Source: Minisyncoccia bacterium
Lineage (GTDB): Bacteria > Patescibacteriota > Minisyncoccia > Phycocordibacterales > GWA1-40-21
Reading direction: 5' to 3'
NCBI GenBank assembly: GCA_049695975.1
Contig: JBAVTE010000009.1
Location: 4,459-68,458 of the forward strand
DNA: 64,000 nucleotides
How positions within the stretch are numbered: position 1 is the first letter of the stretch; each line of letters opens with the position of its first letter. The notes under the pieces were generated by a model. It made no database searches and was not told the DNA's origin. It saw only the letters and a list, made by a program, of their open reading frames with translations. Positions 2 through 14,344 of this stretch are shown in pieces. The position numbers and the translations under genes were made by a program.

Positions 2-1543
2 GGTAAACTTCAAGAAATTTTTGGGAAAAAAGGTGACAATACAGCCGAAATGAAATCCATTCTTTCTGAAAAAGGTTTTGATTCCATGTTTGATGTTGCC
101 GTAGAAAATGAAGCTAAACAAGTAGATGCAAACTCAAGACTAATCTGGCAAGAAGAAATCAAAAAAAGAAAAGATCTTCGTAATACTCTGACTTTCACTA
201 TCGACCCAAAAACAGCAAAAGATTTCGACGACGCTATTTCATTTAATAAACTTTCTGATGACAAATTTGAAATAGGTATTCATATTGCAGATGTTTCATT
301 TTATGTGAGAGAAAATACAAAAATGGACAAAGAGGCAAGAAAAAGAGGTTTTTCCGTTTATTTGCCAGATAGAACTATTCCGATGCTTCCTTCAATACTT
401 TCAGACAATCTTTGTAGTTTAAACGAAAGTGAAGAAAAAATGGCCTATTCTGCGATATTTGAACTTGATAAAAACGGAAAGATTCTTTCTAGGTGGTTTG
501 GAAAAACAGTCATAAAATCGGCAAAAAGATTTTCCTATGAAAGTGCCCAAGATGTTTTAAACAAAAAAAGTGGCGAGCATTTTTATGAGCTTGATACTTT
601 GAATAAAATAGCAAAAAAACTTCAAGCTGAGAAAATTCAAAAAGGTGCAGTTGATTTTGAACATGAAGAAATCGAATTTGAAATGGACGGAAACGGAAAA
701 GTTTTATTTATTCACAAAAAAGTCCGTCTTGATACACACAAGCTTGTAGAAGAATATATGCTTCTAGCAAATAGAGAAGTAGCAAATTTTTTGTACAAGA
801 CAATAAAGACAAAGGGTTTTGATTTTTCTCCAATTTTCAGAATTCACGATATACCAGATAGAGAGAAGATCGCAGATCTTTCCCTTTTTGTCCACGCTCT
901 TGGTCACACCTTACCTATAAATAAAAACGGCGGGATTACTGGTAGAGATTTGCAAATACTATTTAAAAAAATAGAAGGAAAAGATGAAGAAGCACTTATC
1001 AAAACGACTGCAATCCGCTCAATGTCAAAAGCTATTTACTCAACCAAAAATATCGGCCACTTTGGACTTGCATTTGAATACTACACGCACTTCACTTCCC
1101 CTATCAGAAGATACCCAGATCTTTGCATTCATAGAATTTTAGAAAAAGTAATCAATAAAGAAAACCTAACAAAAAACGAATGGGATAATTATGAAAAAAT
1201 TGCGAGTGAAAGCAGTCAGAATGAAATTCGTGCAACTGAAGCAGAAAGAGAAGCCAAAAAATTAAAACAGATAGAATTCATATCGGCCAAAATTGGTCAA
1301 ACTTTTGACGGTATTATTACTGGCGTCACGGAATGGGGTATCTATGTAGAAGAAAAAGAAACAAAAACAGAAGGAATGGTAAAACTTTCAAGTATTGGTA
1401 ATGACTATTATGTTTTAGATAAAAAGAAGTACGCCATCATAGGACAAAAGACAAAAAATAAATTTGCTCTTGGAGACAAAGTAAAAATAAAATTAGTTAA
1501 TGCAGATACAGACAAAAAGACGGTGGATTATAAAATAATATAA
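2..1543 (+). CDS. rnr: RNase R / RNase II-family 3'-5' exoribonuclease (RNB domain plus C-terminal S1-like domain); 5'-partial at window edge
   Basis: RNB active-site signature HFGLAFEYYTHFTSPIRRYPDLCIHR; C-terminal S1-like segment GQTFDGIITGVTEWGIYVEE; frame stays open back to nt 2, so the N-terminus lies outside the window. Confidence 0.85.
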   Translation, partial: GKLQEIFGKKGDNTAEMKSILSEKGFDSMFDVAVENEAKQVDANSRLIWQEEIKKRKDLRNTLTFTIDPKTAKDFDDAISFNKLSDDKFEIGIHIADVSFYVRENTKMDKEARKRGFSVYLPDRTIPMLPSILSDNLCSLNESEEKMAYSAIFELDKNGKILSRWFGKTVIKSAKRFSYESAQDVLNKKSGEHFYELDTLNKIAKKLQAEKIQKGAVDFEHEEIEFEMDGNGKVLFIHKKVRLDTHKLVEEYMLLANREVANFLYKTIKTKGFDFSPIFRIHDIPDREKIADLSLFVHALGHTLPINKNGGITGRDLQILFKKIEGKDEEALIKTTAIRSMSKAIYSTKNIGHFGLAFEYYTHFTSPIRRYPDLCIHRILEKVINKENLTKNEWDNYEKIASESSQNEIRATEAEREAKKLKQIEFISAKIGQTFDGIITGVTEWGIYVEEKETKTEGMVKLSSIGNDYYVLDKKKYAIIGQKTKNKFALGDKVKIKLVNADTDKKTVDYKII

Positions 1544-1559
1544 AAATCATCAAAATAAA

Positions 1560-3842
1560 CTATTTTGCCACCGCAACAGCCTCGTCAAATTGAATAGAGA
1601 GAAGTTTAGATACACCGTCAGAACCCATTGTCACTCCATAGATGACGCCAGCACGAGACATTGTCTCTCTATTGTGTGTGATAAGAATAAGTTGAGAATA
1701 TTTGGCAAGGCTTTCTATCATATCTCCATATCTTCTAGAATTGGCTTCATCGAGAGCAGCATCTGTTTCATCCAAAATAATAAATGGTGGAGGATTGACC
1801 TGTGATACGGCAAAAATAAGTGCAATGGAAGTAAGAGCTCTTTCACCACCAGAAAGCATCATAAGCCCTTTGATTTTTTTCTTTGGTAAATTGACTTCAA
1901 TATCAAGCCCTTCTTTTTCTTCAATCTCTTCTTCAGCAATTTCTTCACCCCCATCTTCCGGCAAAAGTTCCACATCAGATTTACGCTTCTTTTGCTCCTT
2001 CACCACAGAAAGCGAAGCTGTTCCCCCGCCAAACATCTGACTGAAAAATTCTTGAAATTGAATATTGATTTTTTGAACACCAATTTTAAATTCTACTGTG
2101 ATTTTTTCATCAAGTTCTTTAATCAGATTTTTCAATGCTTCGGAAGATTTGAAAAGGTCTTCGAGTTCTCGTGCCAAAAATCCATCTCTTTCTGTAGTTT
2201 CTTTGTATTCCTTTACAATATCATCTCCACCAGCAACCCCAGCATCTTCAAGACGGATTTTAATCTTTTCCATCGCTCTCTTTCTTTCAAATTGGGCTTC
2301 CCTACCTTCTTTTATTATTTCATCTTGAGAAAGTGGTGTACCATCTTCCTTTATAGGCCAAAAATCCTTGAAATGTAGTGCGGATGATCCAACAAGAATT
2401 CCTGCTTCCTGAAATTCTCTTTTGAGTTCTTCCTCATCTCTTCTAAGATTTTCTTCCCTTGTTTTTAAAGCTGATAAAACATTTCTCAATTCGTTTTGTT
2501 CAGCAATAATTCTAAAAACTGCTTTTTCTGCATCTCTATTTGAATCTTTTTCTTTTTCTATTTCATTTTTTACCATCACATACTCCTCAGAAAGCTCCGC
2601 TTCTTTCTGTTTTGAAATCTTCAATGCTTCTTCGTGTGCTCTCTTTTGATTTTCTAAATTTTTAACTTCATCTTTCAAATCATTTATTGATCCATCATCT
2701 TCATTTGAATGTCTTTTTATAAAATCTGTAAATGAATCTTTCACAAAATGAAAGAATTTTTTGATTTTTGAAATATCGTCTGAATTTTCGACCTCCTTCA
2801 TTTCGAGATCTATGATTTTATACAAATTTTCTACAGAAGTCATCTCTACTTTTCTATCTTTTAATGAATTTGCTTCATCTTCTTGTTTTTTTATAATTCT
2901 TATAATGGAAAAAATTTCTCCTTCAACACGGCCAATATCTCTCATTAAACTGTCCTTTACTTGCCTCACGCCTTTCAATTTTTCTTCAATGTCAATAATC
3001 TTTCCACTTTTTTCGTCTTTTGACTCCGACTTTGCTAAAACACTTTTTGCTTTAGAAAGCTCAGCCTCCAGATTTTTCATTTTTTCTTCTGGATTTGCCC
3101 TACTATCTAAAATATTTATTTTCTCAAAATTAATGTATTCTTCCTCTCTTCTAAAATAATCATGGTACATAGAACAAAGTTTTTCTTTCATTAAAATCAA
3201 ACTTTCTATCTTTTCTACCTGCTTTTTCAAAAACTTTATATGCGGAGCAATTTCCCTCCTCAATGATTCAATCTGTTTTATATTTTCATCTGTTTTTACA
3301 AGCTTTCTAGAACTTTCTTCTTTTTTATATTGAAAAATTTTTAGACCAAGAGCATCTTCTATCATTTCTCTTCTTTCTTTTATATTTGCATTAAGAATTT
3401 TGTCCGCCTCGCCCTGAGAAATAATTTGATAGCCTGAAGCACCGATATTTGCATTTGCTAAAAGTTCAATGATATCTTTCAATCGCACTTGGCTACCGTT
3501 TATATAATATTCACTGGAAGAATCTCTGTTTACAACTCTTTCAATAACAACTTCATCAAAATCCACATTCAAAATTCTCTGTGTATTATTGAGAACAAGT
3601 TTCACTCCAGCACGATTTGCCCTTCCTGCATCTTTACCACCATTAAATATCAAATCCTCAGCTCTTTTACCTCGAAGAGATTTGATAGACTGTTCACCAA
3701 GTGCAAATCGAAATGACTCAGCAACATTTGACTTACCAGAACCGTTTGGACCAACAATAGCAGAAATAGGCGTATTAAAATTTAAAACACTTCTTTTATT
3801 GAATGATTTAAACCCAGCAATTTCAATTGATTTAAGATACAT
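1560..3842 (-). CDS. smc: SMC-family chromosome condensation ATPase, unusually compact (760 aa)
   Basis: N-terminal head FKSFNKRSVLNFNTPISAIVGPNGSGKSNV (Walker A); long K/E-rich coiled coil; C-terminal head with ABC signature LSGGERALTSIALIFAV and Walker B FIILDETDAALD; pre-head SMC motif region RLEDAGVAGGDDIVKEYKE; rnc-X-smc gene order. Confidence 0.8.
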   Translation of the reverse strand: MYLKSIEIAGFKSFNKRSVLNFNTPISAIVGPNGSGKSNVAESFRFALGEQSIKSLRGKRAEDLIFNGGKDAGRANRAGVKLVLNNTQRILNVDFDEVVIERVVNRDSSSEYYINGSQVRLKDIIELLANANIGASGYQIISQGEADKILNANIKERREMIEDALGLKIFQYKKEESSRKLVKTDENIKQIESLRREIAPHIKFLKKQVEKIESLILMKEKLCSMYHDYFRREEEYINFEKINILDSRANPEEKMKNLEAELSKAKSVLAKSESKDEKSGKIIDIEEKLKGVRQVKDSLMRDIGRVEGEIFSIIRIIKKQEDEANSLKDRKVEMTSVENLYKIIDLEMKEVENSDDISKIKKFFHFVKDSFTDFIKRHSNEDDGSINDLKDEVKNLENQKRAHEEALKISKQKEAELSEEYVMVKNEIEKEKDSNRDAEKAVFRIIAEQNELRNVLSALKTREENLRRDEEELKREFQEAGILVGSSALHFKDFWPIKEDGTPLSQDEIIKEGREAQFERKRAMEKIKIRLEDAGVAGGDDIVKEYKETTERDGFLARELEDLFKSSEALKNLIKELDEKITVEFKIGVQKINIQFQEFFSQMFGGGTASLSVVKEQKKRKSDVELLPEDGGEEIAEEEIEEKEGLDIEVNLPKKKIKGLMMLSGGERALTSIALIFAVSQVNPPPFIILDETDAALDEANSRRYGDMIESLAKYSQLILITHNRETMSRAGVIYGVTMGSDGVSKLLSIQFDEAVAVAK

Positions 3843-3851
3843 TTTTCTTCT

Positions 3852-4208
3852 TTATTCCGTTAATTCATTTATTAACTTTTCTATATCACCATCTGGAGTA
3901 TCAAGTTCCATCATATCAGGAGATGTATTAGGAATACTATCTTTTAAAATATACCAAAGTACAAAATCATTGGGTTGAAGTCCCTTTGATTTAATTTGTT
4001 CCTCCAATGTTTTAATTTTTTGATTATTAAATACATCAAATTTATTTGTCATGGTATTTGCTACTTCCCCACTATCGTCCACATCATTTAAAAGTTTTGT
4101 ATGCAAAAGATCTATCTTAAGTTTGATTTCAATAATTTTATCATTTCTTAAAATCTCTTCTGATTCTTCTTTTTGTCCTTCTATTATGTTTTGTTGATCA
4201 AAATTCAT
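3852..4208 (-). CDS. hypothetical small acidic protein inserted between rnc and smc
   Basis: 118-aa ORF, ATG start, tightly packed (8 nt from rnc stop, 10 nt from smc start); no recognisable motif. Confidence 0.4.
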   Translation of the reverse strand: MNFDQQNIIEGQKEESEEILRNDKIIEIKLKIDLLHTKLLNDVDDSGEVANTMTNKFDVFNNQKIKTLEEQIKSKGLQPNDFVLWYILKDSIPNTSPDMMELDTPDGDIEKLINELTE

Positions 4209-4215
4209 ACTTAAA

Positions 4216-4911
4216 TTATTTACCCCAACACTTTTTTACAAGCGCTGTCTTTGCTGCTTCTTGTTCTGCTTCTTGCTTTGATTTACCTGTTCCAATAGAA
4301 ATCAACTCCTTATCTAAGTATACTCCAACTGTGAAAATTTTGTCATGATCCGGTCCTTCTTCTTTTATTGTTTTATAAGACGGGGTAATGTTTTCATTTT
4401 CTTGGGAAGCCTCCTGAAAATTACTTTTTGCGTCCATCCAAGCCTTTTCTGCCACAATATTGTCTATCAGATGAAAAATATTATTAGAAATAAAATATTT
4501 GGCAATTTCATAACCTTGATCAATAAAAATTGCACCGATAAGTGCCTCTATTGTATTTGCCAAAATAATCTGTCTTGCCCTACCAGTGTCTTTTGTCTCA
4601 CCTTTTGATAATAAAAGAAAATCATTCATTTTTATTTTTGAAGCTGCACTAGACATTGTTTCTGCATTTACAAGAGCAGCACGATAAGATGTAAGATCCC
4701 CTTCATTTTCATCAATGTATTTATTATATAAATATTCAGTAACGATAAGCTCGAGTACAGCATCACCCAAAAATTCTAAGCGCTCATTATGCACAAGCTC
4801 TGAATCTTTGTGTTCATTCAAATATGACCTGTGAGTAAAGGCCTGTTTTAATAAATTTTTATTTTTAAAATTTATTCCTATTATTTCCTCAAATTCTTTA
4901 AAATTTTTCAT
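4216..4911 (-). CDS. rnc: ribonuclease III
   Basis: RNase III signature HNERLEFLGDAVLELIV; C-terminal dsRBD-like KxxAxxxAA region (KQEAEQEAAKTAL). Confidence 0.9.
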   Translation of the reverse strand: MKNFKEFEEIIGINFKNKNLLKQAFTHRSYLNEHKDSELVHNERLEFLGDAVLELIVTEYLYNKYIDENEGDLTSYRAALVNAETMSSAASKIKMNDFLLLSKGETKDTGRARQIILANTIEALIGAIFIDQGYEIAKYFISNNIFHLIDNIVAEKAWMDAKSNFQEASQENENITPSYKTIKEEGPDHDKIFTVGVYLDKELISIGTGKSKQEAEQEAAKTALVKKCWGK

Positions 4912-4919
4912 TATAATTT

Positions 4920-5831
4920 TTATTTTATTTCTACAACAGGACGACTTCCTAAAATAGAAATCGCTTTTGTAATGATTGGTAAGATATCATTATAAAAATT
5001 GAGACTTTGAATTTCTGAAAGTTTAAACCATTTTGCATCGTCCAACCCCCCACTTGAACCAAGCTTCAAATCCTGCATGTTAGAATTGGCAAGAAAATAT
5101 TTTACCTGTTTACGTATTTTACCTTCTTCTGGATGATTGGCTATATATTCATTTGATTGTAATTCATCTTCGATTATCACATCAAGTCCAAGCTCTTCTT
5201 TGATTTCCCTCAAAAGACCATCCTTTAAGGATTCATCTTTTTCAAGTCGGCCCTTTGACAAAGTCCATCTACCAAAAACATCGTGAACAAAAGCAAGATA
5301 AATATCGTTATCTTTTTTGCCATAAACAACAGCTCCAACTAAAATTTTTATTGGCATTTGTTCGTATGGCCGATCCTTATTATCTTTTTTAGTTGTTTCG
5401 TTTTTACCTGGCTCTCCAAGCTCTTTATAAATAGTACCCAAAACTCCATTTACAAATCCGCCACTCTTGTCTCCACTAAAAGTCTTGGCAATTTCTATTG
5501 ATTCATTTATTGCAACTTTTGCCGGAACTTCTTTTCTATCAGAAAAAAGAAGCTCATAAAGTCCCATTCTTAAAATATTTCTATCTACAATGGAAATTTT
5601 ATCTATTGGCCAATCAGGTGCAGCCTTGCAAATAATGTTATCAAGGTCAGATTTCTTTCCTAAAATACCAAAAAGTAAAGTAGTAGCAAAAGATAGGTCG
5701 TCGGCGCCACCACCAAATTCGATGATATTTCTTTTGAGAGACAAAAGAGAGACATCCTTAGAAAAACCCCGAAAATCACTTTCGAATGCTGTTTGAAGAA
5801 CTATTGATCTTGCAAGGTGCCTGTTTGCCAT
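4920..5831 (-). CDS. nusB: NusB antitermination domain fused to a C-terminal NUDIX hydrolase domain
   Basis: N-terminal ~140 aa match NusB (VPAKVAINESIEIAKTFSGDKSGGFVNGVLGTIYK); C-terminal ~150 aa carry a complete Nudix box GRLEKDESLKDGLLREIKEELGL (GX5EX7REUXEEXGU). Confidence 0.75.
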   Translation of the reverse strand: MANRHLARSIVLQTAFESDFRGFSKDVSLLSLKRNIIEFGGGADDLSFATTLLFGILGKKSDLDNIICKAAPDWPIDKISIVDRNILRMGLYELLFSDRKEVPAKVAINESIEIAKTFSGDKSGGFVNGVLGTIYKELGEPGKNETTKKDNKDRPYEQMPIKILVGAVVYGKKDNDIYLAFVHDVFGRWTLSKGRLEKDESLKDGLLREIKEELGLDVIIEDELQSNEYIANHPEEGKIRKQVKYFLANSNMQDLKLGSSGGLDDAKWFKLSEIQSLNFYNDILPIITKAISILGSRPVVEIK

Positions 5832-5898
5832 ATTTTTCTCGTCCGTCCGCCTATGGCGGATTAGGATAAAAATGTTAAAAAACTAAAATCAAACAAAA

Positions 5899-6150
5899 CT
5901 ATTTGACGGCTACTGCTTTATCTTCTTTTTTTGCTTTTACTACTTTTTTGCCTTTTGTTATTTTTTTAAAAGATTTAACTTCTGAAACAATAACTTCTTT
6001 TCCGTTGTATTTTCCACAATTACCACAAACCCTGTGATTGAGTCGTGCTTTTCCACAACCCGGACACTTCGTCAAAGACACACCTTTCAAGGCATGATGA
6101 GATCTTGTGCTTCCCCTCTGGGATCTATTGTGTCGCATTCTATTTACCAT
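5899..6150 (-). CDS. rpmF: 50S ribosomal protein L32 with lysine-rich C-terminal extension
   Basis: RSHHALKGVSLTKCPGCGKARLNHRVCGNCGKYNGKEVI matches the L32 zinc-ribbon core; ~25-aa K-rich tail. Confidence 0.8.
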   Translation of the reverse strand: MVNRMRHNRSQRGSTRSHHALKGVSLTKCPGCGKARLNHRVCGNCGKYNGKEVIVSEVKSFKKITKGKKVVKAKKEDKAVAVK

Positions 6151-6199
6151 AATAGAACCACTATAGCGTATTCAAGAAAAAAAAGCAACAATTTTGTAT

Positions 6200-6231
6200 A
6201 TAAAAAGACCGCCACTCGCAAGTGGCGATCT
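6200..6231 (-). terminator. Rho-independent terminator downstream of the NUDIX gene (minus strand)
   Basis: GC hairpin (CGCCACT-CGCA-AGTGGCG) followed on the minus strand by a T-run (CTTTTTATAT). Confidence 0.5.
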
Positions 6232-6248
6232 TGTCAAAAAAATAAAGA

Positions 6249-6743
6249 TCAACTCTTTATATTTGGATTAGGAAACCGTTGCAAAAGTTCTGAATAGACT
6301 GACAAAAACCTTTGATCTTTGGCCAACTCTACCAGTATCGCACCGAAGGCACCGTGCTGACCATGATAGAGTTTGTCCGCGAACTCTCGAATAGGCAACC
6401 ACCGTGCAATAATATACGAAATAGTTACATCATTACAGAAAATATTTTCCTCAAACTTAGATATTCGGTCTGGACCAAATCCGGGAATCACTCTGGTCGC
6501 CAAGTAGAAATATTGAGTAAGATTCTTAAAAATGACAACGTGAACCAAATAACTATCCACGATACGTGTTCCACCAGTTTCTTCAAAAACCTCTCGTCGC
6601 ATTGTCTCTTCAGGTGTTTCTTTACATATTGCCATACCCCCAGGCATTTTCACATTCAGAGGAAATCGAGTATCAGTAACACACAAAACCATCAAATCAG
6701 ATTTATAACTACCAAGAATAAAACAAGCAGAGAAACTTTTCAT
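6249..6743 (-). CDS. NUDIX hydrolase (stand-alone)
   Basis: Nudix box GGMAICKETPEETMRREVFEETGG. Confidence 0.7.
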   Translation of the reverse strand: MKSFSACFILGSYKSDLMVLCVTDTRFPLNVKMPGGMAICKETPEETMRREVFEETGGTRIVDSYLVHVVIFKNLTQYFYLATRVIPGFGPDRISKFEENIFCNDVTISYIIARWLPIREFADKLYHGQHGAFGAILVELAKDQRFLSVYSELLQRFPNPNIKS

Positions 6744-6860
6744 AACAAATCTCCTAAAATTCTAAATTTAATTGTCAAAAAATTTCCATCTGGAAATCTC
6801 AACTCTTATCCGTATATAATAATACACCCAAAAGTATTAAATGTTTAATATTATTTCTAA

Positions 6861-7511
6861 TTAGACCATCTTTTTCAAAAAACATTTTCTGTGCTCTTTA
6901 CAAATTCCATACTTTTTTATTTTTTCATAATGTTTTTTTGTGCCATAGCCCTTGTGAACTTCAAAACAATAATTTGGATATTTTTTTGCCAATCTACACA
7001 TTAGAGTATCTCTTGAGACTTTCGCTACAATAGATGCAAAAGCTATTACCCTTTCTTTTTCATCTCCTTTTATAATTGTCTTTTGATTTTTGTATTTATC
7101 TGGAGCTTTTAATCCCCCGTCAAGAAGTATTTGGCAGTTTTTTGGATTTAATTTTAATTTTTCTAAGGTTTTTTCCAAGGCTTTTTTAATTGCAGGAACT
7201 ATACCTATTTTATCTATTGTTCTTGAGCTTTCAAAAGAAACTGCATAGTTTACTTTTTTATTTTTCTTTAGTTCTTTTAATTTACAAAAATTTTCTTCTC
7301 TTTCTGTGAACTTTAATTTTTTTGAATCTTTTATCTTTCCAAAATTTTTTGCATTGAAATCTATAGGCATAACAAATGCACATACAGTGACTGGCCCAGC
7401 TAGAGGTCCTCTCCCCACTTCATCTATTCCTACAACAAACTTTATTACATTTTGCAACTTTTTATTTATCATTTTTTGAAGTATGATTACTAATACTATC
7501 ATTATGTCCAA
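6861..7511 (-). CDS. rnhB: ribonuclease HII
   Basis: VVGIDEVGRGPLAGPVTVCAFVM (RNase HII DEVGRG motif); the ORF-track start is TTG, the biological start is probably the ATG at 7502 or 7472. Confidence 0.85.
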   Translation of the reverse strand: MDIMIVLVIILQKMINKKLQNVIKFVVGIDEVGRGPLAGPVTVCAFVMPIDFNAKNFGKIKDSKKLKFTEREENFCKLKELKKNKKVNYAVSFESSRTIDKIGIVPAIKKALEKTLEKLKLNPKNCQILLDGGLKAPDKYKNQKTIIKGDEKERVIAFASIVAKVSRDTLMCRLAKKYPNYCFEVHKGYGTKKHYEKIKKYGICKEHRKCFLKKMV

Positions 7512-10500
7512 ATTTATTCATTTACACACGCATAGTCACTATTCTCTCCTAAATGCTTTGCCTAAAATTCCTGAGCTTATTAAACAAGCAAAAAAATTTG
7601 AAATGTCAGCTCTCGCACTCACAGACGCTGGCAATATGTATGGAGCAATTGAGTTTTATCAGTCCTGCAAAAAAAATGATGTGAAGCCGATTATCGGAGT
7701 GGACTTTTACGTAGCAAATCGAGGGAGATTCGACAAACAAGGAGGTATAGATAATCGCCGAACACGCTTAGTTCTTATCGCTAAAAATAATAATGGGTAC
7801 AAAAATCTTATCAAACTTGTTACTGATTCATACTTTGAGGGTTTCTATTATAAACCCAGAATAGATAAAGAACTTATTGAAAAATATAAAGACGATTTGA
7901 TTTGTATAATGCCACACTTTTCTGGAGAAACTTCTTTTGCTTTGAAAAACAGCGATACTGAAAAAGCTAAAAACTTGGTAGATTGGTACAAAAAAATATA
8001 TGGCGATAATTTTTTTCTTGAGATTACACATCATCCAGAAATAGAAGGTCAGATTGAATTAAAAGAAAAAATTAAAAAACTTGCAAAAGACTCTGGTGCA
8101 AACCTAGTGGCGGGACAAGATGTTTACTATCTCAATCCTGAAGATAAACAAGCCAGAGACACTCTCGTGCAAGTAAATTCCCATTCTGATTTTGGAGATA
8201 GAGAACAAAAAGAAGGGGTTGATAATTTTTCATTTATTTCTTCTGAAAAAGCCATAGAATATTTCAAAGACGAACCAGAAGCTTTGGAAAATACTGAAAA
8301 AATAGCAGAAATGTGCAATGTAGAAATTGTTTTAGGAAAAGACGCTTGGGTATTTCCAAAATTTATTGTGGAAAGCGGCCTATCAAATGATGAAGAACTA
8401 AAAAGAATAGCGTACGAAGGAATAGAAAAAAGAGGTCTGACTCGTTCAAAAGAAGTTGTGGACAGACTTGAATATGAACTTGAGGTTATAAAAAATAAAG
8501 GTTATCCCCAATATTTTCTTGTCGTTCACGACCTCTTAAAATATGCCGACGAACATGGAATTTTTACAAACATCAGAGGCTCAGTCGCAGGCTCACTTGT
8601 CACATATCTTACAAAAATTACAAAAGTTGATCCTCTTCTATACAAACTTCCGTTTGAAAGATTTCTAAATCCAGAAAGACCTTCAGCGCCAGATATTGAT
8701 ATGGACTTTGCTGATAATAGAAGAGATGAAGTTATTGATTATGTGAGATCAAAATATGGCAAAGACAATGTCGCACAAATTGGTACCTTCGGAACAATGA
8801 TGGCCAGAGGCTCTGTACGTGACGTGGCTCGCGCTATGGGTTTTCCCCTTCCACTTGCCGATAAAATAGCAAAACTTATTCCTCTCGGTGCACAAGGCTT
8901 CCCTATGACAATCGACAAAGCGCTTGTTGATGTACCAGAATTAAAAAAAATATATGATGAAGATAAAGATGCAAAAACGATTATCGATATGGCAAAAAAA
9001 ATTGAAGGATGTGCGAGACACATTTCTGTTCACGCGGCAGGAGTTGTCATTGCACCAAGTTCTCTTCTAAACTATGTTCCACTCCAATATGATCCAAAAG
9101 GCGAAGGAAAAATTATCACACAATACGATATGCATGCTGTCGGTGAAGATGGCGTAGGACTTTTGAAATTTGACTTTCTCGGAATTAAAAATCTTTCTAT
9201 CCTTGCAGATGCTGTAGACCGAGTCAAAAAAATTGAAAATATAGATTTGGATATAGAAGCAATTCCTCTTGATGATTCCAAAACTTTTGAGATGCTAGCC
9301 CGTGGTGAAACGATCGGTTTATTCCAACTCAATGGTTCAGGATTAACAAAGTTTTTGAAAGATCTAAAGCCTACCACCATTCACGATATCAATGCTATGG
9401 TTGCTCTTTACCGTCCTGGTCCTTTGGAGTCAATCCCCCAATATATTGAACGAAAACACAATCCTGCTCTTATCAAATATTTGGACCCAAGACTCAAAGA
9501 TATTTTGGACCAATCTTACGGAGTTATCACCTATCAAGACGACGTCATGCTTACGGCCATTAAACTTGCAGGATATTCATGGCTTGAAGCTGACAAACTC
9601 AGAAAAGCCATGGGAAAAAAGATCCCAGCAGAAATGCAGGCACAAAAAGATAAGCTACTTAAAGGTTTCATTGCAAATGGGCTTTCCGAAAAAAAAGCGG
9701 ACACACTTTGGAAACTTATTGAACCATTTGCAGCTTACGGTTTCAACAAGGCTCATGCTGCAAGTTATGGAAGGGTCGCATATCAAACTTCATATATGAA
9801 AGCCAACTTTCCTGCGATATATATGTCTGCAGTATTAACTGCCGACTCTGGTGATGTAGAAAAAATAGGTGAATTTATTGCCGAGTGTAAAAAAATGGGT
9901 ATCCCCGTACTTCCGCCATCTGTAAATGAAAGTTTTAGCGCATTTACTGTCGTAAAAACTCATGGAGCTAGTCCACATTCTACAGGACCTGACAGAGACA
10001 AAATTAGATTTGGACTTACAACCATTAAAAACTTTGGGGAAGGAATTTCAAAAATTATAGTTCATGATAGAAAAGCCAAAGGAAAATTTAAATCTCTCTC
10101 TGATTTTCTCGAAAGGATCATTGATAGAAACATGAACAAAAAATCTCTTGAGGCTCTTATAAAAACAGGGGCTTTGGATGAATTCGGCGAAAGGGGTCAA
10201 ATGCTCGCTAATATTGAAAATCTTTTGAAATACAACAAAGAAGTAAGTCAAAAAGATCAAAATCAAGATTCCCTTTTTGGAGTATTTGATGGATCTACTG
10301 GTGAAATTGCAAAAGAAGCTTTTATATTAGAACCTGCCCCTGAGGCCACTATGAAAGATAAACTCCTTTGGGAAAAAGATTTACTTGGACTCTATGTTTC
10401 TGGACACCCTCTTGATAAATATAAAACTATATTAGACAAGCAACAAATAAATATTAAAAAAATAAAAGAAGAAACAGAATCAGTTAAAAAAATTATTAAC

Positions 10501-10746
10501 GGCGGAAAACCCATAGGCGGAATCATAGAAGAAGTGAGAGAAATAATGACAAAAAATAACGACCCAATGGCTTTTATAAAAATAGCTGATTTCACTGGTT
10601 CAATAGAGGCAGTAGTTTTTCCTAAAACATATCTTCAATACAAAAACGCAATAATAGTAGATAAATGTATCGCGTCTGTTTGTAAAATATCAGAAAGAAA
10701 TGGAGAAGTAAGTTTAATTATAGAAAGATTAAAAGTTTTGGAATAA
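7483..10746 (+). CDS. dnaE: DNA polymerase III alpha subunit
   Basis: N-terminal PHP domain FIHLHTHSHYSLLNALPKI...ALTDAGNMYG; polymerase core and OB-fold region; likely start at M8 (nt 7504, MSKFIHLHTHS). Confidence 0.9.
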   Translation: MITNTIIMSKFIHLHTHSHYSLLNALPKIPELIKQAKKFEMSALALTDAGNMYGAIEFYQSCKKNDVKPIIGVDFYVANRGRFDKQGGIDNRRTRLVLIAKNNNGYKNLIKLVTDSYFEGFYYKPRIDKELIEKYKDDLICIMPHFSGETSFALKNSDTEKAKNLVDWYKKIYGDNFFLEITHHPEIEGQIELKEKIKKLAKDSGANLVAGQDVYYLNPEDKQARDTLVQVNSHSDFGDREQKEGVDNFSFISSEKAIEYFKDEPEALENTEKIAEMCNVEIVLGKDAWVFPKFIVESGLSNDEELKRIAYEGIEKRGLTRSKEVVDRLEYELEVIKNKGYPQYFLVVHDLLKYADEHGIFTNIRGSVAGSLVTYLTKITKVDPLLYKLPFERFLNPERPSAPDIDMDFADNRRDEVIDYVRSKYGKDNVAQIGTFGTMMARGSVRDVARAMGFPLPLADKIAKLIPLGAQGFPMTIDKALVDVPELKKIYDEDKDAKTIIDMAKKIEGCARHISVHAAGVVIAPSSLLNYVPLQYDPKGEGKIITQYDMHAVGEDGVGLLKFDFLGIKNLSILADAVDRVKKIENIDLDIEAIPLDDSKTFEMLARGETIGLFQLNGSGLTKFLKDLKPTTIHDINAMVALYRPGPLESIPQYIERKHNPALIKYLDPRLKDILDQSYGVITYQDDVMLTAIKLAGYSWLEADKLRKAMGKKIPAEMQAQKDKLLKGFIANGLSEKKADTLWKLIEPFAAYGFNKAHAASYGRVAYQTSYMKANFPAIYMSAVLTADSGDVEKIGEFIAECKKMGIPVLPPSVNESFSAFTVVKTHGASPHSTGPDRDKIRFGLTTIKNFGEGISKIIVHDRKAKGKFKSLSDFLERIIDRNMNKKSLEALIKTGALDEFGERGQMLANIENLLKYNKEVSQKDQNQDSLFGVFDGSTGEIAKEAFILEPAPEATMKDKLLWEKDLLGLYVSGHPLDKYKTILDKQQINIKKIKEETESVKKIINGGKPIGGIIEEVREIMTKNNDPMAFIKIADFTGSIEAVVFPKTYLQYKNAIIVDKCIASVCKISERNGEVSLIIERLKVLE

Positions 10747-10807: not shown

Positions 10808-11815
10808 TCACTGATGTCCATAAATGGACAATGTACCAGGAACCGCAACGTCGTTCGTAACACTGTAATAATAGCTCGTAGTCATGGTCCATTCTTGCGA
10901 CCATGAGTAACCACCATCTGTTGATATTGATATCTCAAACGATCCATTGAAATCCCAACTTTTTTGTTGGCCTAAACCAATGGACTTTTGTACATCATTT
11001 ACCACACACACCAACACATACGAAGAATTATTTGTAACAACAACCTCCGTAGGAAGGGCAACAACTGTAGTACTACAGGAGGCACTAATCGTCTGGCTAC
11101 CCGAAGTCACTGTGACGGTCGCAGTCTTCTGACCAGAACTTGAATAGGTTTTGGAAACATTTGGAGAGTTTCCAATCAAACCATCTGTCCCTGACCAAGA
11201 GTACGTATAACTACCCAATCCACCAGAAGCTGAAACGCTCCAAGTAATCGGTTCCCCCACATTTGCAGTCGCCGGTGTTACCGAACAAGCAATAGTAAGC
11301 GGAGGAGGATTTGTGGTCGTACCCTCGTTTGTGAGATACAGATACCACATTCCGAGAGATTCGTTATAAACCGCGATATCTGTTTTTCCATCACCATCAT
11401 AGTCTGCCATGATAGGCTCATATCCAGGACCTCCGAATCCTCCCGAAATAAGAGAATAATTATTCCCAGACAATAATATCTGCCATTCTCCTGTTGTCTG
11501 ATTATAGATAATGGGATCTGTTTTCCCATCGTTATCAAAATCTCCAGACACAGGTTGGAATCCTAAACCTCCAAAGGTTAATTCTTTCATTTGATAACCG
11601 TCTGAAGACGTGAGGACTCTCCACGATCCTGTTTGTCTATTGTAGACCGCGATGTCTGTTTTTCCATCACCATCATAGTCACCTAAAACGGACTGGAGTC
11701 CCGAACCTCCAAACTGCCCTTGCAGGATGACAGGTGCTGAACCCACCGTGGTGACACCAATCGTGGCGACAAATATGACCAACAAAAACCCGAACACTAA
11801 ACTATTTAGTTTCAT
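10808..11815 (-). CDS. secreted surface protein: signal peptide, 3-4 FG-GAP/VCBS-like repeats (DYDGDGKTDIAVYN), one PKD-like domain, C-terminal domain of unknown function
   Basis: Start taken at ATG 11815 (MKLNSLVFGFLLVIFVA signal peptide; ORF-track start 11857 is TTG); repeats DYDGDGKTDIAVYN / DFDNDGKTDPIIYN / DYDGDGKTDIAVYN; PKD-like SVTPATANVGEPITWSVSASGGLGSYTYSWSGTDG paralogous to the repeats in 44215..45621. Confidence 0.6.
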   Translation of the reverse strand: MKLNSLVFGFLLVIFVATIGVTTVGSAPVILQGQFGGSGLQSVLGDYDGDGKTDIAVYNRQTGSWRVLTSSDGYQMKELTFGGLGFQPVSGDFDNDGKTDPIIYNQTTGEWQILLSGNNYSLISGGFGGPGYEPIMADYDGDGKTDIAVYNESLGMWYLYLTNEGTTTNPPPLTIACSVTPATANVGEPITWSVSASGGLGSYTYSWSGTDGLIGNSPNVSKTYSSSGQKTATVTVTSGSQTISASCSTTVVALPTEVVVTNNSSYVLVCVVNDVQKSIGLGQQKSWDFNGSFEISISTDGGYSWSQEWTMTTSYYYSVTNDVAVPGTLSIYGHQ

Positions 11816-11924
11816 TTTCTTTCCCTTTCTTTTTGAAACAACGTGTGATTTCCCCAAACAGATGTTAGAACTTCTCCTTTCCTATTTTAAAGTTAAAGAA
11901 CAATTTATGTCTATACTAACAAAT

Positions 11925-14270: not shown

Positions 14271-14344
14271 GGCTCCGGAGGTAGGGATCGAACCTACGAC
14301 CAATCGCTTAACAGGCGATCGCTCTACCGCTGAGCTACTCCGGA
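14271..14344 (-). tRNA. tRNA-Asn (anticodon GTT)
   Basis: Hand-folded cloverleaf: acceptor TCCGGAG/CTCCGGA, D-arm GCTC-AGCGGTA-GAGC, anticodon arm ATCGC-CTGTTAA-GCGAT (anticodon GTT), T-arm GTAGG-TTCGATC-CCTAC, discriminator G then CC. Confidence 0.85.

What the first reader, a model, noticed from the sequence alone, without database searches (positions are those of the whole stretch)
4920..5831. NusB fused to a NUDIX hydrolase domain in the rnc-smc neighbourhood, with a second NUDIX gene 0.4 kb away
The N-terminal half is an unmistakable NusB (AINESIEIAKTFSGDKSGGFVNGVL). The C-terminal half carries a complete Nudix box (GRLEKDESLKDGLLREIKEELGL). NusB normally acts with NusE in the antitermination complex on nascent rRNA. 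Nudix enzymes of the RppH/NudC type remove 5' pyrophosphate or NAD caps from RNA. A covalent NusB-Nudix fusion would place a potential RNA 5'-end-processing activity on the elongation complex. A second stand-alone Nudix gene (6249..6743) follows rpmF.
Basis: partly seen in the sequence, partly recalled or inferred. Interest (0 to 1): 0.55.

Follow-up and report, generated by a model that had tools for sequence, protein, structure and literature searches.

The report
NusB fused to Ap4A-hydrolase-type Nudix domain
In a large group of tiny uncultivated bacteria (Paceibacteria), the transcription antitermination factor NusB permanently carries a second domain of the Ap4A-hydrolase/NUDT2 kind, whose nucleotide pocket never varies but whose catalytic residue is often lost; nobody has described this pairing, and it hints at a link between antitermination and RNA 5'-end or alarmone chemistry.

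Summary
Window 4920-5831 (- strand) is one uninterrupted 303-aa ORF with a NusB domain (aa 7-136) and a NUDIX domain (aa 165-282) carrying a canonical Nudix box. It is not a frameshift artefact: all 120 best protein clusters and at least 45 species-level genomes encode the same ~300-aa fusion (43-100% identity), always between rpmF and rnc, where unfused relatives have a plain nusB. The Nudix half is not RppH- or NudC-like. By profile and fold it belongs to the Ap4A/Ap6A hydrolase branch (Aquifex aq_158, Ndx1, CT771, human NUDT2). NUDT2 does dephosphorylate 5'-ppp RNA, so an RNA 5'-end role remains plausible. However, the nucleotide pocket (K193, Y229, Y280) is invariant in 46 of 46 species, while the metal-binding Glu E209 (NUDT2 E58; E58A is inactive) is kept in only 29 of 46 and changed at least 10 times. 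Ligand binding is therefore the conserved property; hydrolysis is likely in this window's copy but dispensable elsewhere. The "second Nudix gene" is an unrelated orphan with its own terminator and is not a conserved partner. No paper found describes the architecture. Function is untested.

The parts
4920..5831 (-). nusB-Nudix fusion gene (303 aa plus stop)
   Evidence: Single ORF. Identical to NCBI 'MAG: transcription antitermination factor NusB [Minisyncoccia bacterium]' (P0001).
5418..5831 (-). NusB domain, aa 1-138
   Evidence: PF01029 102.6 bits; TIGR01951 110.3 bits, above the 88.35 cut-off. All-helical model matching T. maritima NusB and Aquifex NusB in the NusB-NusE-BoxA complex, TM 0.83-0.88. 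32 invariant residues across 46 species, including the N-terminal R4, H5 and R8.
5355..5417 (-). Linker, aa 139-159, starting with the GEPGK motif
   Evidence: pLDDT below 50 for aa 141-149. GEPGK(D/E) is also present in unfused Patescibacterial NusB, where K/E-rich disordered tails follow it.
4944..5354 (-). Nudix domain of the Ap4A-hydrolase/NUDT2 type, aa 160-296
   Evidence: PF00293 46.6 bits. Foldseek: Aquifex Ap4A hydrolase 3i7u TM 0.87-0.88, Ndx1, CT771, C. elegans Ap4A hydrolase. Profile against PDB: the top 8 sequences are all Ap4A/Ap6A hydrolases, E 1e-13 to 1e-10.
5184..5252 (-). Nudix box, aa 194-216: GRLEKDESLKDGLLREIKEELGL
   Evidence: Canonical in the window copy. Across 46 species: E200 44, R208 45, E209 29, E212 40, E213 45.
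5899..6150 (-). rpmF (ribosomal protein L32), upstream gene of the conserved rpmF-nusB-rnc block
   Evidence: PF01783 51.1 bits. Found upstream of nusB in nearly all 80 related loci.
4216..4911 (-). rnc (RNase III), starting 8 nt downstream of the fusion gene's stop
   Evidence: PF14622, PF00636 and dsrm. Found downstream of nusB in fused and unfused loci alike. No terminator-like site between the two genes.
6249..6743 (-). Second, stand-alone Nudix gene (164 aa); not part of the system
   Evidence: PF00293 31 bits. Only a self hit in the 5.8-billion-cluster database. PDB matches marginal, E >= 0.02. Weak counterparts in only 3 of 80 loci.
6205..6232 (-). Intrinsic-terminator-like hairpin (12-bp stem plus T-run) separating the second Nudix gene from rpmF
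   Evidence: It is the only strong terminator-like site in 1400-7700.

Best explanation
Shown: this is the orthologous, housekeeping-position nusB of a Paceibacteria (Patescibacteria/CPR) lineage, extended at its C-terminus by a flexible linker and a Nudix domain of the NUDT2/Ap4A-hydrolase branch. The pocket residues that in human Ap4A hydrolase hold the alpha-phosphate and sandwich the adenine ring are invariant across the family.

Inferred: the Nudix module recognises a purine nucleotide linked to a polyphosphate. Candidates are a free dinucleoside polyphosphate (Ap4A-type alarmone) or, the option I favour, the 5'-terminal pppN / Np4-cap of an RNA. Because the module is covalently tied to NusB, this recognition happens where NusB acts, on BoxA-type leader RNA held at the elongating RNA polymerase.

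In the window's protein all canonical metal-binding and catalytic box residues are present, so it most likely also hydrolyses the ligand (ppp/Np4 to monophosphate). That would prepare the 5' end of NusB-bound transcripts for 5'-end-dependent processing alongside the co-transcribed RNase III. In the lineages that have lost the metal-binding Glu, the module would bind but not turn over, or turn over only slowly.
For: Fusion and orthology: Pfam and NCBIfam scores. 120 of 120 top clusters carry both domains. 45 species-level genomes have a 286-311-aa fusion at 43-73% identity. rpmF-nusB-rnc order is identical in fused and unfused genomes, and no Nudix relative lies within 6 kb of unfused nusB. There is no second nusB in the window.

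Subfamily: Foldseek TM 0.87-0.88 to Aquifex Ap4A hydrolase, then Rv2985, Ndx1, CT771 and C. elegans Ap4A hydrolase. With a profile, the top 8 PDB sequences are all Ap4A/Ap6A hydrolases, including human NUDT2.

Pocket: K193, Y229 and Y280 align to NUDT2 K42, Y82 and F128. Those residues bind the P1 phosphate and stack the adenine (PMC4734340). They are invariant 46 of 46 here.

RNA precedent: NUDT2 trims PPP-RNA to P-RNA, and E58A abolishes this (PMC8616924). NpnN caps exist on bacterial RNA and are removed by Nudix RppH (PMC7044304, PMC8833179).

Catalytic competence of this copy: full GX5EX7REUXEEXGU box. E200, R208, E212 and E213 are 87-98% conserved family-wide.

Operon: 8-nt gap to rnc with no terminator between.
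Against: No activity, RNA-binding or NusE-binding data exist. The metal-binding Glu E209 (NUDT2 E58) is replaced by K, A, I or G in 17 of 46 species, with at least 10 independent changes, and ranks only 72nd of 137 Nudix positions in conservation. A subclade (11 of 120 close relatives) carries a triple change, D..E..RG..EK. So hydrolysis is not what selection maintains everywhere.

The Nudix half is acidic (mean net charge -6.4, pI 5.2), unlike an extended RNA-binding surface. The inter-domain geometry is not predicted with confidence (pTM 0.55, disordered linker). No NusB substitution is diagnostic of the fused state, so there is no sequence sign of a fixed inter-domain interface. The window has no rRNA operon, so BoxA proximity to a 5' end could not be examined.
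Confidence: 0.4

Rival explanations
1. Ligand-sensing, essentially non-catalytic module. The Nudix half works like the Nudix domains of NrtR and AraR regulators: it binds a small nucleotide (an Ap4A-type alarmone or an ADP-ribose-like metabolite) and thereby modulates NusB's antitermination activity. Any hydrolysis serves only to reset the signal.
For: The pocket is invariant but the metal Glu has been lost repeatedly. The Nudix domains of NrtR (3gz8, rank 4) and AraR (5bs6, rank 12) are among the best fold matches. The Nudix-clan survey states that non-catalytic Nudix domains are typically part of multidomain proteins and bind small molecules (PMC5389931). The domain is acidic. Related modules on RNase E relatives have fully degenerate boxes.
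Against: E200, R208, E212 and E213 remain 87-98% conserved, and 29 of 46 species keep the whole box, which pure binding would not require. Profile similarity to true Ap4A hydrolases (E 1e-13) is much stronger than to AraR. There is no evidence that NusB activity is ligand-regulated in any organism.
Confidence: 0.3
2. Functionally independent housekeeping Ap4A/NpnN hydrolase that became fused to nusB in a reduced genome. It is co-expressed with NusB but not mechanistically coupled to it.
For: Membership in the Ap4A hydrolase branch. A flexible, poorly conserved linker (mean entropy 1.96, against 1.16 for NusB and 1.52 for Nudix; pLDDT below 50). No fusion-specific changes in the NusB half. Stand-alone 140-150-aa relatives exist (P0130, P0144, P0158).
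Against: The fusion is retained without a single split among 45 species-level genomes spanning down to 43% identity. A housekeeping hydrolase would not be expected to lose its metal-binding Glu at least 10 times while keeping its pocket invariant.
Confidence: 0.2
3. Assembly or frameshift artefact joining two separate genes.
For: None found.
Against: The identical architecture appears in 120 independent protein clusters from NCBI, JGI, ENA and Logan assemblies, and in 45 species-representative genomes including closed chromosomes.
Confidence: 0.01

Closest known systems
Bacterial NusB (TIGR01951; e.g. Aquifex NusB in the NusB-NusE-BoxA complex, PDB 3R2C)
   Same: The N-terminal 138 aa score above the equivalog cut-off, have the same all-helical fold (TM 0.88), keep the N-terminal Arg-rich motif, and sit in the same genomic slot as unfused nusB in sister lineages.
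   Different: Carries a ~165-aa C-terminal extension (linker plus Nudix domain). Classical NusB is a single-domain protein of about 140 aa. Sister Patescibacteria instead have short K/E-rich disordered tails.
Asymmetric Ap4A/Ap6A hydrolases of the Nudix family (human NUDT2, C. elegans Ap4A hydrolase, Aquifex aq_158, T. thermophilus Ndx1, Chlamydia CT771)
   Same: These are the best sequence-profile and fold matches. They share the W-T-x-(P/S)-K-G strand before the box, and the P1-phosphate Lys/Tyr and adenine-stacking aromatic pair are conserved. NUDT2 also acts on 5'-ppp RNA.
   Different: Those enzymes are stand-alone, single-domain proteins with a strictly conserved box. Here the domain is fused to NusB and the NUDT2-E58-equivalent Glu varies across the family. 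Identity is only about 20-25%.
RppH (E. coli NudH type; Bdellovibrio BdRppH) and NudC
   Same: Nudix fold. The proposed role in removing 5' pyrophosphate or caps from RNA is analogous.
   Different: Far below the NCBIfam cut-offs for RppH (about 27 vs 118 bits) and NudC (about 17-20 vs 158). BdRppH is only a distant structural match (TM 0.62). No NudC-specific motif or zinc site is visible.
Nudix-domain regulators NrtR and AraR
   Same: Multidomain proteins in which a Nudix fold with relaxed catalytic residues serves as a ligand sensor for a nucleic-acid-binding partner domain. Both rank high among fold matches.
   Different: Their partner domain is a winged-helix DNA binder, not an RNA-binding antitermination factor. 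Their boxes are more thoroughly degenerate.
Dcp2 catalytic Nudix domain
   Same: Significant sequence match (E 3e-7 with the profile). It is an RNA 5'-end-directed Nudix working inside a larger assembly.
   Different: A weaker match than the Ap4A hydrolases. No Box A/Box B regulatory or RNA-binding elements were identified.

Membership tests
NusB (TIGR01951 / PF01029) | Profile score above the curated cut-off | tested here: met
   TIGR01951 110.3 bits against 88.35; PF01029 102.6 against 23.1.
NusB (TIGR01951 / PF01029) | All-alpha NusB fold | tested here: met
   AF2 model with helices through aa 4-138. Foldseek TM 0.83-0.88 to T. maritima, M. tuberculosis and Aquifex NusB.
NusB (TIGR01951 / PF01029) | Orthologous genomic position | tested here: met
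   rpmF-nusB-rnc order is shared by 45 fused and 33 unfused loci.
NusB (TIGR01951 / PF01029) | Binds NusE (S10) and BoxA RNA; supports antitermination | not testable with these tools
   Only indirect evidence: N-terminal R4/H5/R8 and 29 further NusB residues are invariant.
Nudix hydrolase superfamily (PF00293) | Profile score above the cut-off and the alpha/beta/alpha Nudix fold | tested here: met
   46.6 bits against 21.1; TM up to 0.88 to solved Nudix enzymes.
Nudix hydrolase superfamily (PF00293) | Complete Nudix box GX5EX7REUXEEXGU | tested here: met
   Met in the window protein (aa 194-216). Across the family it is met in only 61 of 120 close relatives, and the RE-Glu is present in 29 of 46 species.
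Nudix hydrolase superfamily (PF00293) | Pyrophosphohydrolase activity | not testable with these tools
   Requires an enzyme assay.
Ap4A/NpnN hydrolase branch (NUDT2-like) | Closest relatives by profile and fold are characterised Ap4A/Ap6A hydrolases | tested here: met
   The top 8 PDB sequences are all of this branch (E 1e-13 to 1e-10). The top Foldseek hit is 3i7u.
Ap4A/NpnN hydrolase branch (NUDT2-like) | P1-phosphate Lys and Tyr, and the adenine-stacking Tyr plus Tyr/Phe pair | tested here: met
   K193, Y229 and Y280 align to NUDT2 K42, Y82 and F128 (roles from PMC4734340) and are invariant 46 of 46.
Ap4A/NpnN hydrolase branch (NUDT2-like) | Hydrolysis of Ap4A, or of PPP-RNA | not testable with these tools
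   Requires an enzyme assay.
RppH (NCBIfam NF001936 and related models) | Score above the equivalog cut-off | tested here: not met
   24.8-26.6 bits against a cut-off of 118. BdRppH: E 4e-4, TM 0.62.
NudC (NAD(+) diphosphatase, NF001299) | Score above the cut-off; NudC-specific motif downstream of the box; zinc-binding N-terminal region | tested here: not met
   16.9-19.5 bits against 158. No SQPWPFP-like motif or Cys cluster is visible in the sequence.
NrtR/AraR-type Nudix regulators | Nudix domain fused to a winged-helix DNA-binding domain | tested here: not met
   The partner domain is NusB and no HTH domain was detected. Only the Nudix fold resembles these regulators.

The most novel reading that the evidence does not exclude
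The NusB-Nudix protein is a transcription-coupled reader, and in many lineages also an eraser, of the RNA 5' end or of Np4N alarmones. It would tie rRNA/operon antitermination to the phosphorylation or capping state of the nascent transcript, or to cellular Ap4A levels. This would be the first Nus factor with a built-in nucleotide-sensing or decapping module, and the first co-transcriptional 5'-end surveillance device in bacteria.
Probability: 0.25. Interest if true: 0.8.

Novelty: new variant of a known kind. Interest (0 to 1): 0.5.

Why it matters
NusB is a textbook single-domain factor of the rRNA antitermination complex. The role of Ap4A and of Np4 caps in bacteria, and how RNA 5'-end status is coupled to transcription, are open questions. 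A fusion kept across a whole clade of ultra-small bacteria is a natural "Rosetta stone" linking these processes. It also offers a compact, directly testable protein: wild-type box versus natural E209K/A/I/G variants. On the practical side, public annotation calls these proteins simply "NusB" and hides the second domain.

Tried and rejected
1. Frameshift or assembly artefact: rejected.

2. RppH or NudC identity: rejected on NCBIfam scores and structure ranks.

3. Second Nudix gene as a functional partner: rejected. It is an orphan, sits behind its own terminator and is not syntenic.

4. Split nusB plus adjacent Nudix in unfused relatives: looked for within +/-6 kb in 33 loci and none found.

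5. Counting fusion gains and losses from a NusB-half NJ tree: unresolved. There were 6 state changes on an unsupported tree of a 150-aa domain, and my first attempt lost 15 sequences through an over-strict motif filter.

6. Fusion-specific substitutions in the NusB half, as a sign of an inter-domain interface: none at the 70%/70% thresholds.

7. RNase E-Nudix proteins as guilt-by-fusion support. The architecture is real (a single ORF on a 16.7-kb contig), but it is limited to about 3 clusters and the boxes are fully degenerate. It is therefore only anecdotal.

8. BoxA or rRNA context: the window has no rRNA, only one tRNA, so this was not testable.

9. Literature: five searches found no description of the architecture.

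Full report

Yes. Window 4920-5831 on the minus strand is a single ATG-initiated ORF of 303 codons with no internal stop.
- Pfam finds NusB (PF01029, aa 7-136, 102.6 bits) and NUDIX (PF00293, aa 165-282, 46.6 bits), both far above their curated cut-offs.
- The NCBIfam nusB equivalog model TIGR01951 scores 110.3 bits against a cut-off of 88.35.
- The gene order on the minus strand is rnhB, second Nudix ORF, rpmF, nusB-Nudix, rnc, a 118-aa ORF, smc.
- The window (34% G+C) contains no second nusB and no further Nudix box.

**2. Is it an artefact?**

No.
- The exact protein exists in NCBI as [quoted passage not shown].
- All 120 best clusters in the 5.8-billion-cluster database are proteins of 288-305 aa carrying both Pfam domains, at 67-100% identity, from NCBI, JGI, ENA and Logan assemblies.
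- A scan of one genome per GTDB species returned 45 loci that encode an uninterrupted 286-311-aa fusion at 43-73% identity. The records are labelled Paceibacterota, Nomura-, Vogel-, Niyogi-, Taga-, Giovannoni- and Ryanbacteria and similar, and include closed chromosomes.
- A further 33 loci (Moran-, Yanofsky-, Portnoy-, Sung-, Colwellbacteria and others) encode only a 145-209-aa NusB.

**3. Evolutionary anatomy**

- In both groups the gene lies between rpmF and rnc, usually followed by smc. The fusion gene is therefore the orthologous nusB, not a paralogue.
- None of the unfused loci has a relative of this Nudix domain within 6 kb. The architecture is a domain accretion at the 3' end of nusB, not a merger of two neighbouring genes.
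- Unfused Patescibacterial NusB proteins end in the same "NGVLGT(I/V)Y(R/K)E(I/M)GEPGKD(D/E)" motif and then carry 10-70 residues of K/E-rich low-complexity tail. In the fused lineages the Nudix domain follows that motif instead.
- A neighbour-joining tree of the NusB half alone does not separate fused from unfused cleanly (6 state changes, no support values). How many times the domain was gained or lost is unresolved.
- No substitution in the NusB half is diagnostic of the fused state.
- In the exhaustive search of 1.84 billion 50%-identity representatives, the Nudix half has only 146 relatives at E <= 1e-10. Of the 150 listed, 58 are full or truncated NusB fusions. Most of the rest are short fragments, with a few stand-alone proteins of 140-150 aa.

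**4. What kind of Nudix domain is it?**

- RppH and NudC NCBIfam models score 17-27 bits against cut-offs of 118-158.
- The AlphaFold model (mean pLDDT 81.6; linker aa 141-149 disordered; pTM 0.55) was searched against the PDB. The best matches to the C-terminal half are Aquifex Ap4A hydrolase aq_158 (TM 0.87-0.88, rmsd 2.0 A), M. tuberculosis Rv2985 diadenosine polyphosphatase, the NrtR Nudix domain, T. thermophilus Ap6A hydrolase Ndx1, Chlamydia CT771, and C. elegans Ap4A hydrolase. BdRppH reaches only TM 0.62.
- A profile built from 33 species-level Nudix halves makes this sharper. The eight best PDB sequences are all Ap4A/Ap6A hydrolases: CT771 1e-13, aq_158 3e-13, Ndx1 5e-13, human NUDT2 1e-11, C. 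elegans 1e-10. Then come Rv2985 (3e-9), Dcp2 (3e-7), MutT-like proteins (about 1e-5) and BdRppH (4e-4).
- The N-terminal half matches T. maritima, M. tuberculosis and Aquifex NusB, the last in its complex with NusE and BoxA RNA (TM 0.88).

**5. What is conserved and what is not**

This is the most informative result. According to PMC4734340, in human Ap4A hydrolase Lys42 and Tyr82 hold the P1 phosphate, and the adenine ring is stacked between Tyr82 and Phe128. In the alignment these residues pair with K193, Y229 and Y280 of the window protein.

Across 46 species-level fusions, K193, Y229 and Y280, together with W189, T190, W268 and F269, are invariant, 46 of 46.

The Glu of the box "RE", E209, pairs with NUDT2 E58. 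This is the metal-coordinating residue whose E58A substitution abolishes PPP-RNA dephosphorylation (PMC8616924).
- E209 is Glu in only 29 of 46 species; otherwise it is K (9), A (4), I (3) or G (1).
- It ranks 72nd of 137 Nudix positions in conservation.
- It has changed at least 10 times on the tree.
- Among the 120 close relatives, only 61 have a fully canonical box, and 11 carry a triple change, D..E..RG..EK.

The other box residues are well kept: E200 44/46, R208 45/46, E212 40/46, E213 45/46.

The reading I draw is this. Nucleotide binding is under universal selection. Hydrolysis is probably ancestral and retained in most lineages, including this window's copy, but it has been dispensable repeatedly.

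**6. Mechanism**

Shown: a bona fide NusB, a bona fide NUDT2-type Nudix fold with an intact adenine/alpha-phosphate pocket, permanent covalent linkage through a flexible linker, and tight packing with rnc (8-nt gap, no terminator).

Inferred (confidence about 0.4): the module recognises a purine-nucleotide polyphosphate at the place where NusB works. The most attractive candidate is the pppN or Np4-capped 5' end of the NusB-bound nascent transcript. In box-intact proteins the module would convert it to a monophosphate. Two precedents exist: human NUDT2 trims PPP-RNA to P-RNA (PMC8616924), and NpnN caps on E. coli RNA are removed by Nudix RppH (PMC7044304, PMC8833179).

Rivals:
- **A ligand-sensing, essentially non-catalytic module, as in NrtR and AraR (about 0.3).** For: the pocket-versus-catalysis pattern, the high fold rank of NrtR/AraR, the acidic character of the domain (net charge -6.4), and the general statement that non-catalytic Nudix domains occur in multidomain proteins and bind small molecules (PMC5389931).
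- **A functionally independent Ap4A hydrolase that is merely co-translated (about 0.2).** For: the floppy linker and the absence of fusion-specific changes in NusB. Against: the fusion never splits in 45 species, and the catalytic residue is lost repeatedly.

**7. The second Nudix gene (6249-6743)**

- It is real (PF00293 31 bits; canonical box) but unrelated to the fusion's story.
- Its only database match is itself, and its PDB matches are marginal (DIPP-type, E >= 0.02).
- A 12-bp GC-rich hairpin with a T-run (6232-6205) separates it from rpmF.
- Only 3 of 80 related loci have even a weak counterpart (22-39 bits) at that position.

**8. Side observation bearing on function**

Among the closest non-NusB relatives of the Nudix half are three RNase E/G proteins of 1018-1167 aa, with one to three C-terminal Nudix-like modules (P0233, P0271, P0272). 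P0233 is a single ORF on a 16.7-kb contig in a housekeeping neighbourhood. Their boxes are fully degenerate, and the architecture is confined to a few clusters. It shows that this Nudix lineage has been recruited, non-catalytically, to another RNA-processing protein, but I treat it as anecdotal.

**9. Novelty**

The domain combination is visible in precomputed Pfam annotations, but public records name the protein simply NusB. Five full-text searches found no paper describing a NusB-Nudix protein. These included NusB+Nudix (36 incidental co-mentions), NusB+Patescibacteria, and the Nudix-clan survey, which never mentions NusB.

I rate it a new variant of known kinds: two well-known domains in an undescribed, clade-wide architecture with an unusual conservation pattern. 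Interest is 0.5. It is a solid, testable lead rather than a demonstrated new mechanism.

Noticed in passing
window 6249-6743 (-) and terminator 6205-6232 (-): Stand-alone 164-aa Nudix protein with a canonical box. It has no homologue other than itself in the 5.8-billion-cluster database and is followed by a strong intrinsic-terminator-like hairpin. Very weak counterparts (22-39 bits) occupy the same rnhB-rpmF gap in L003, L004 and L006, suggesting a fast-evolving gene at a fixed position.
   Followed up: yes
loci L048-L080, C-termini of the nusB ORFs: Unfused Patescibacterial NusB proteins all share a GEPGKD(D/E) motif after the NusB fold, followed by 10-70 aa of K/E-rich low-complexity tail. 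That is unusual for NusB, and the tail sits exactly where the Nudix domain is in the fused lineages.
   Followed up: partly
P0233 (locus L081 4001-7225), P0271, P0272: RNase E/G proteins (S1 + RNase_E_G + thioredoxin-like domain) with one to three C-terminal Nudix-like modules whose Nudix boxes are degenerate. This is a rare architecture, seen in only about 3 clusters.
   Followed up: partly
P0263 (1219 aa), P0228 (577 aa), P0223 (379 aa): Other architectures containing this Nudix lineage: HEPN_Swt1 + NB-ARC/STAND NTPase + TPR + NusB + NUDIX (P0263, possibly a merged gene call, or a defence-like protein that has captured NusB-Nudix); an unknown 316-aa N-terminal region + NusB + NUDIX (P0228); and Sigma70_r4 + DnaA_C HTH + NUDIX (P0223).
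   Followed up: no
window 3852-4208 (-): 118-aa acidic ORF between rnc and smc with no Pfam match. Only weak counterparts (22-27 bits) were found in L001 and L003.
   Followed up: no
window 7483-7511: The listed TTG start of rnhB (6861-7511, -) overlaps the ATG start of the divergent dnaE (7483-10746, +) by 29 bp. The true rnhB start is probably a downstream ATG.
   Followed up: no
window 10808-11857 (-): 349-aa ORF with an N-terminal hydrophobic segment and repeated 'GD(Y/F)DGDGKTD' motifs (FG-GAP/VCBS-like by eye), likely a secreted or surface protein.
   Followed up: no
record titles of L003, L004, L027, L054, L058, L061 and others: Many of the MAGs carrying Paceibacteria-type nusB loci are labelled 'Candidatus Saccharibacteria', 'Bdellovibrionales' or 'Flavobacteriaceae' in their record titles. 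This probably reflects mislabelled taxonomy or contaminated bins.
   Followed up: no
window 14273-14344 (-): The only Rfam gathering-threshold hit in the 64-kb window is one tRNA. No rRNA, leader or riboswitch families were detected.
   Followed up: no
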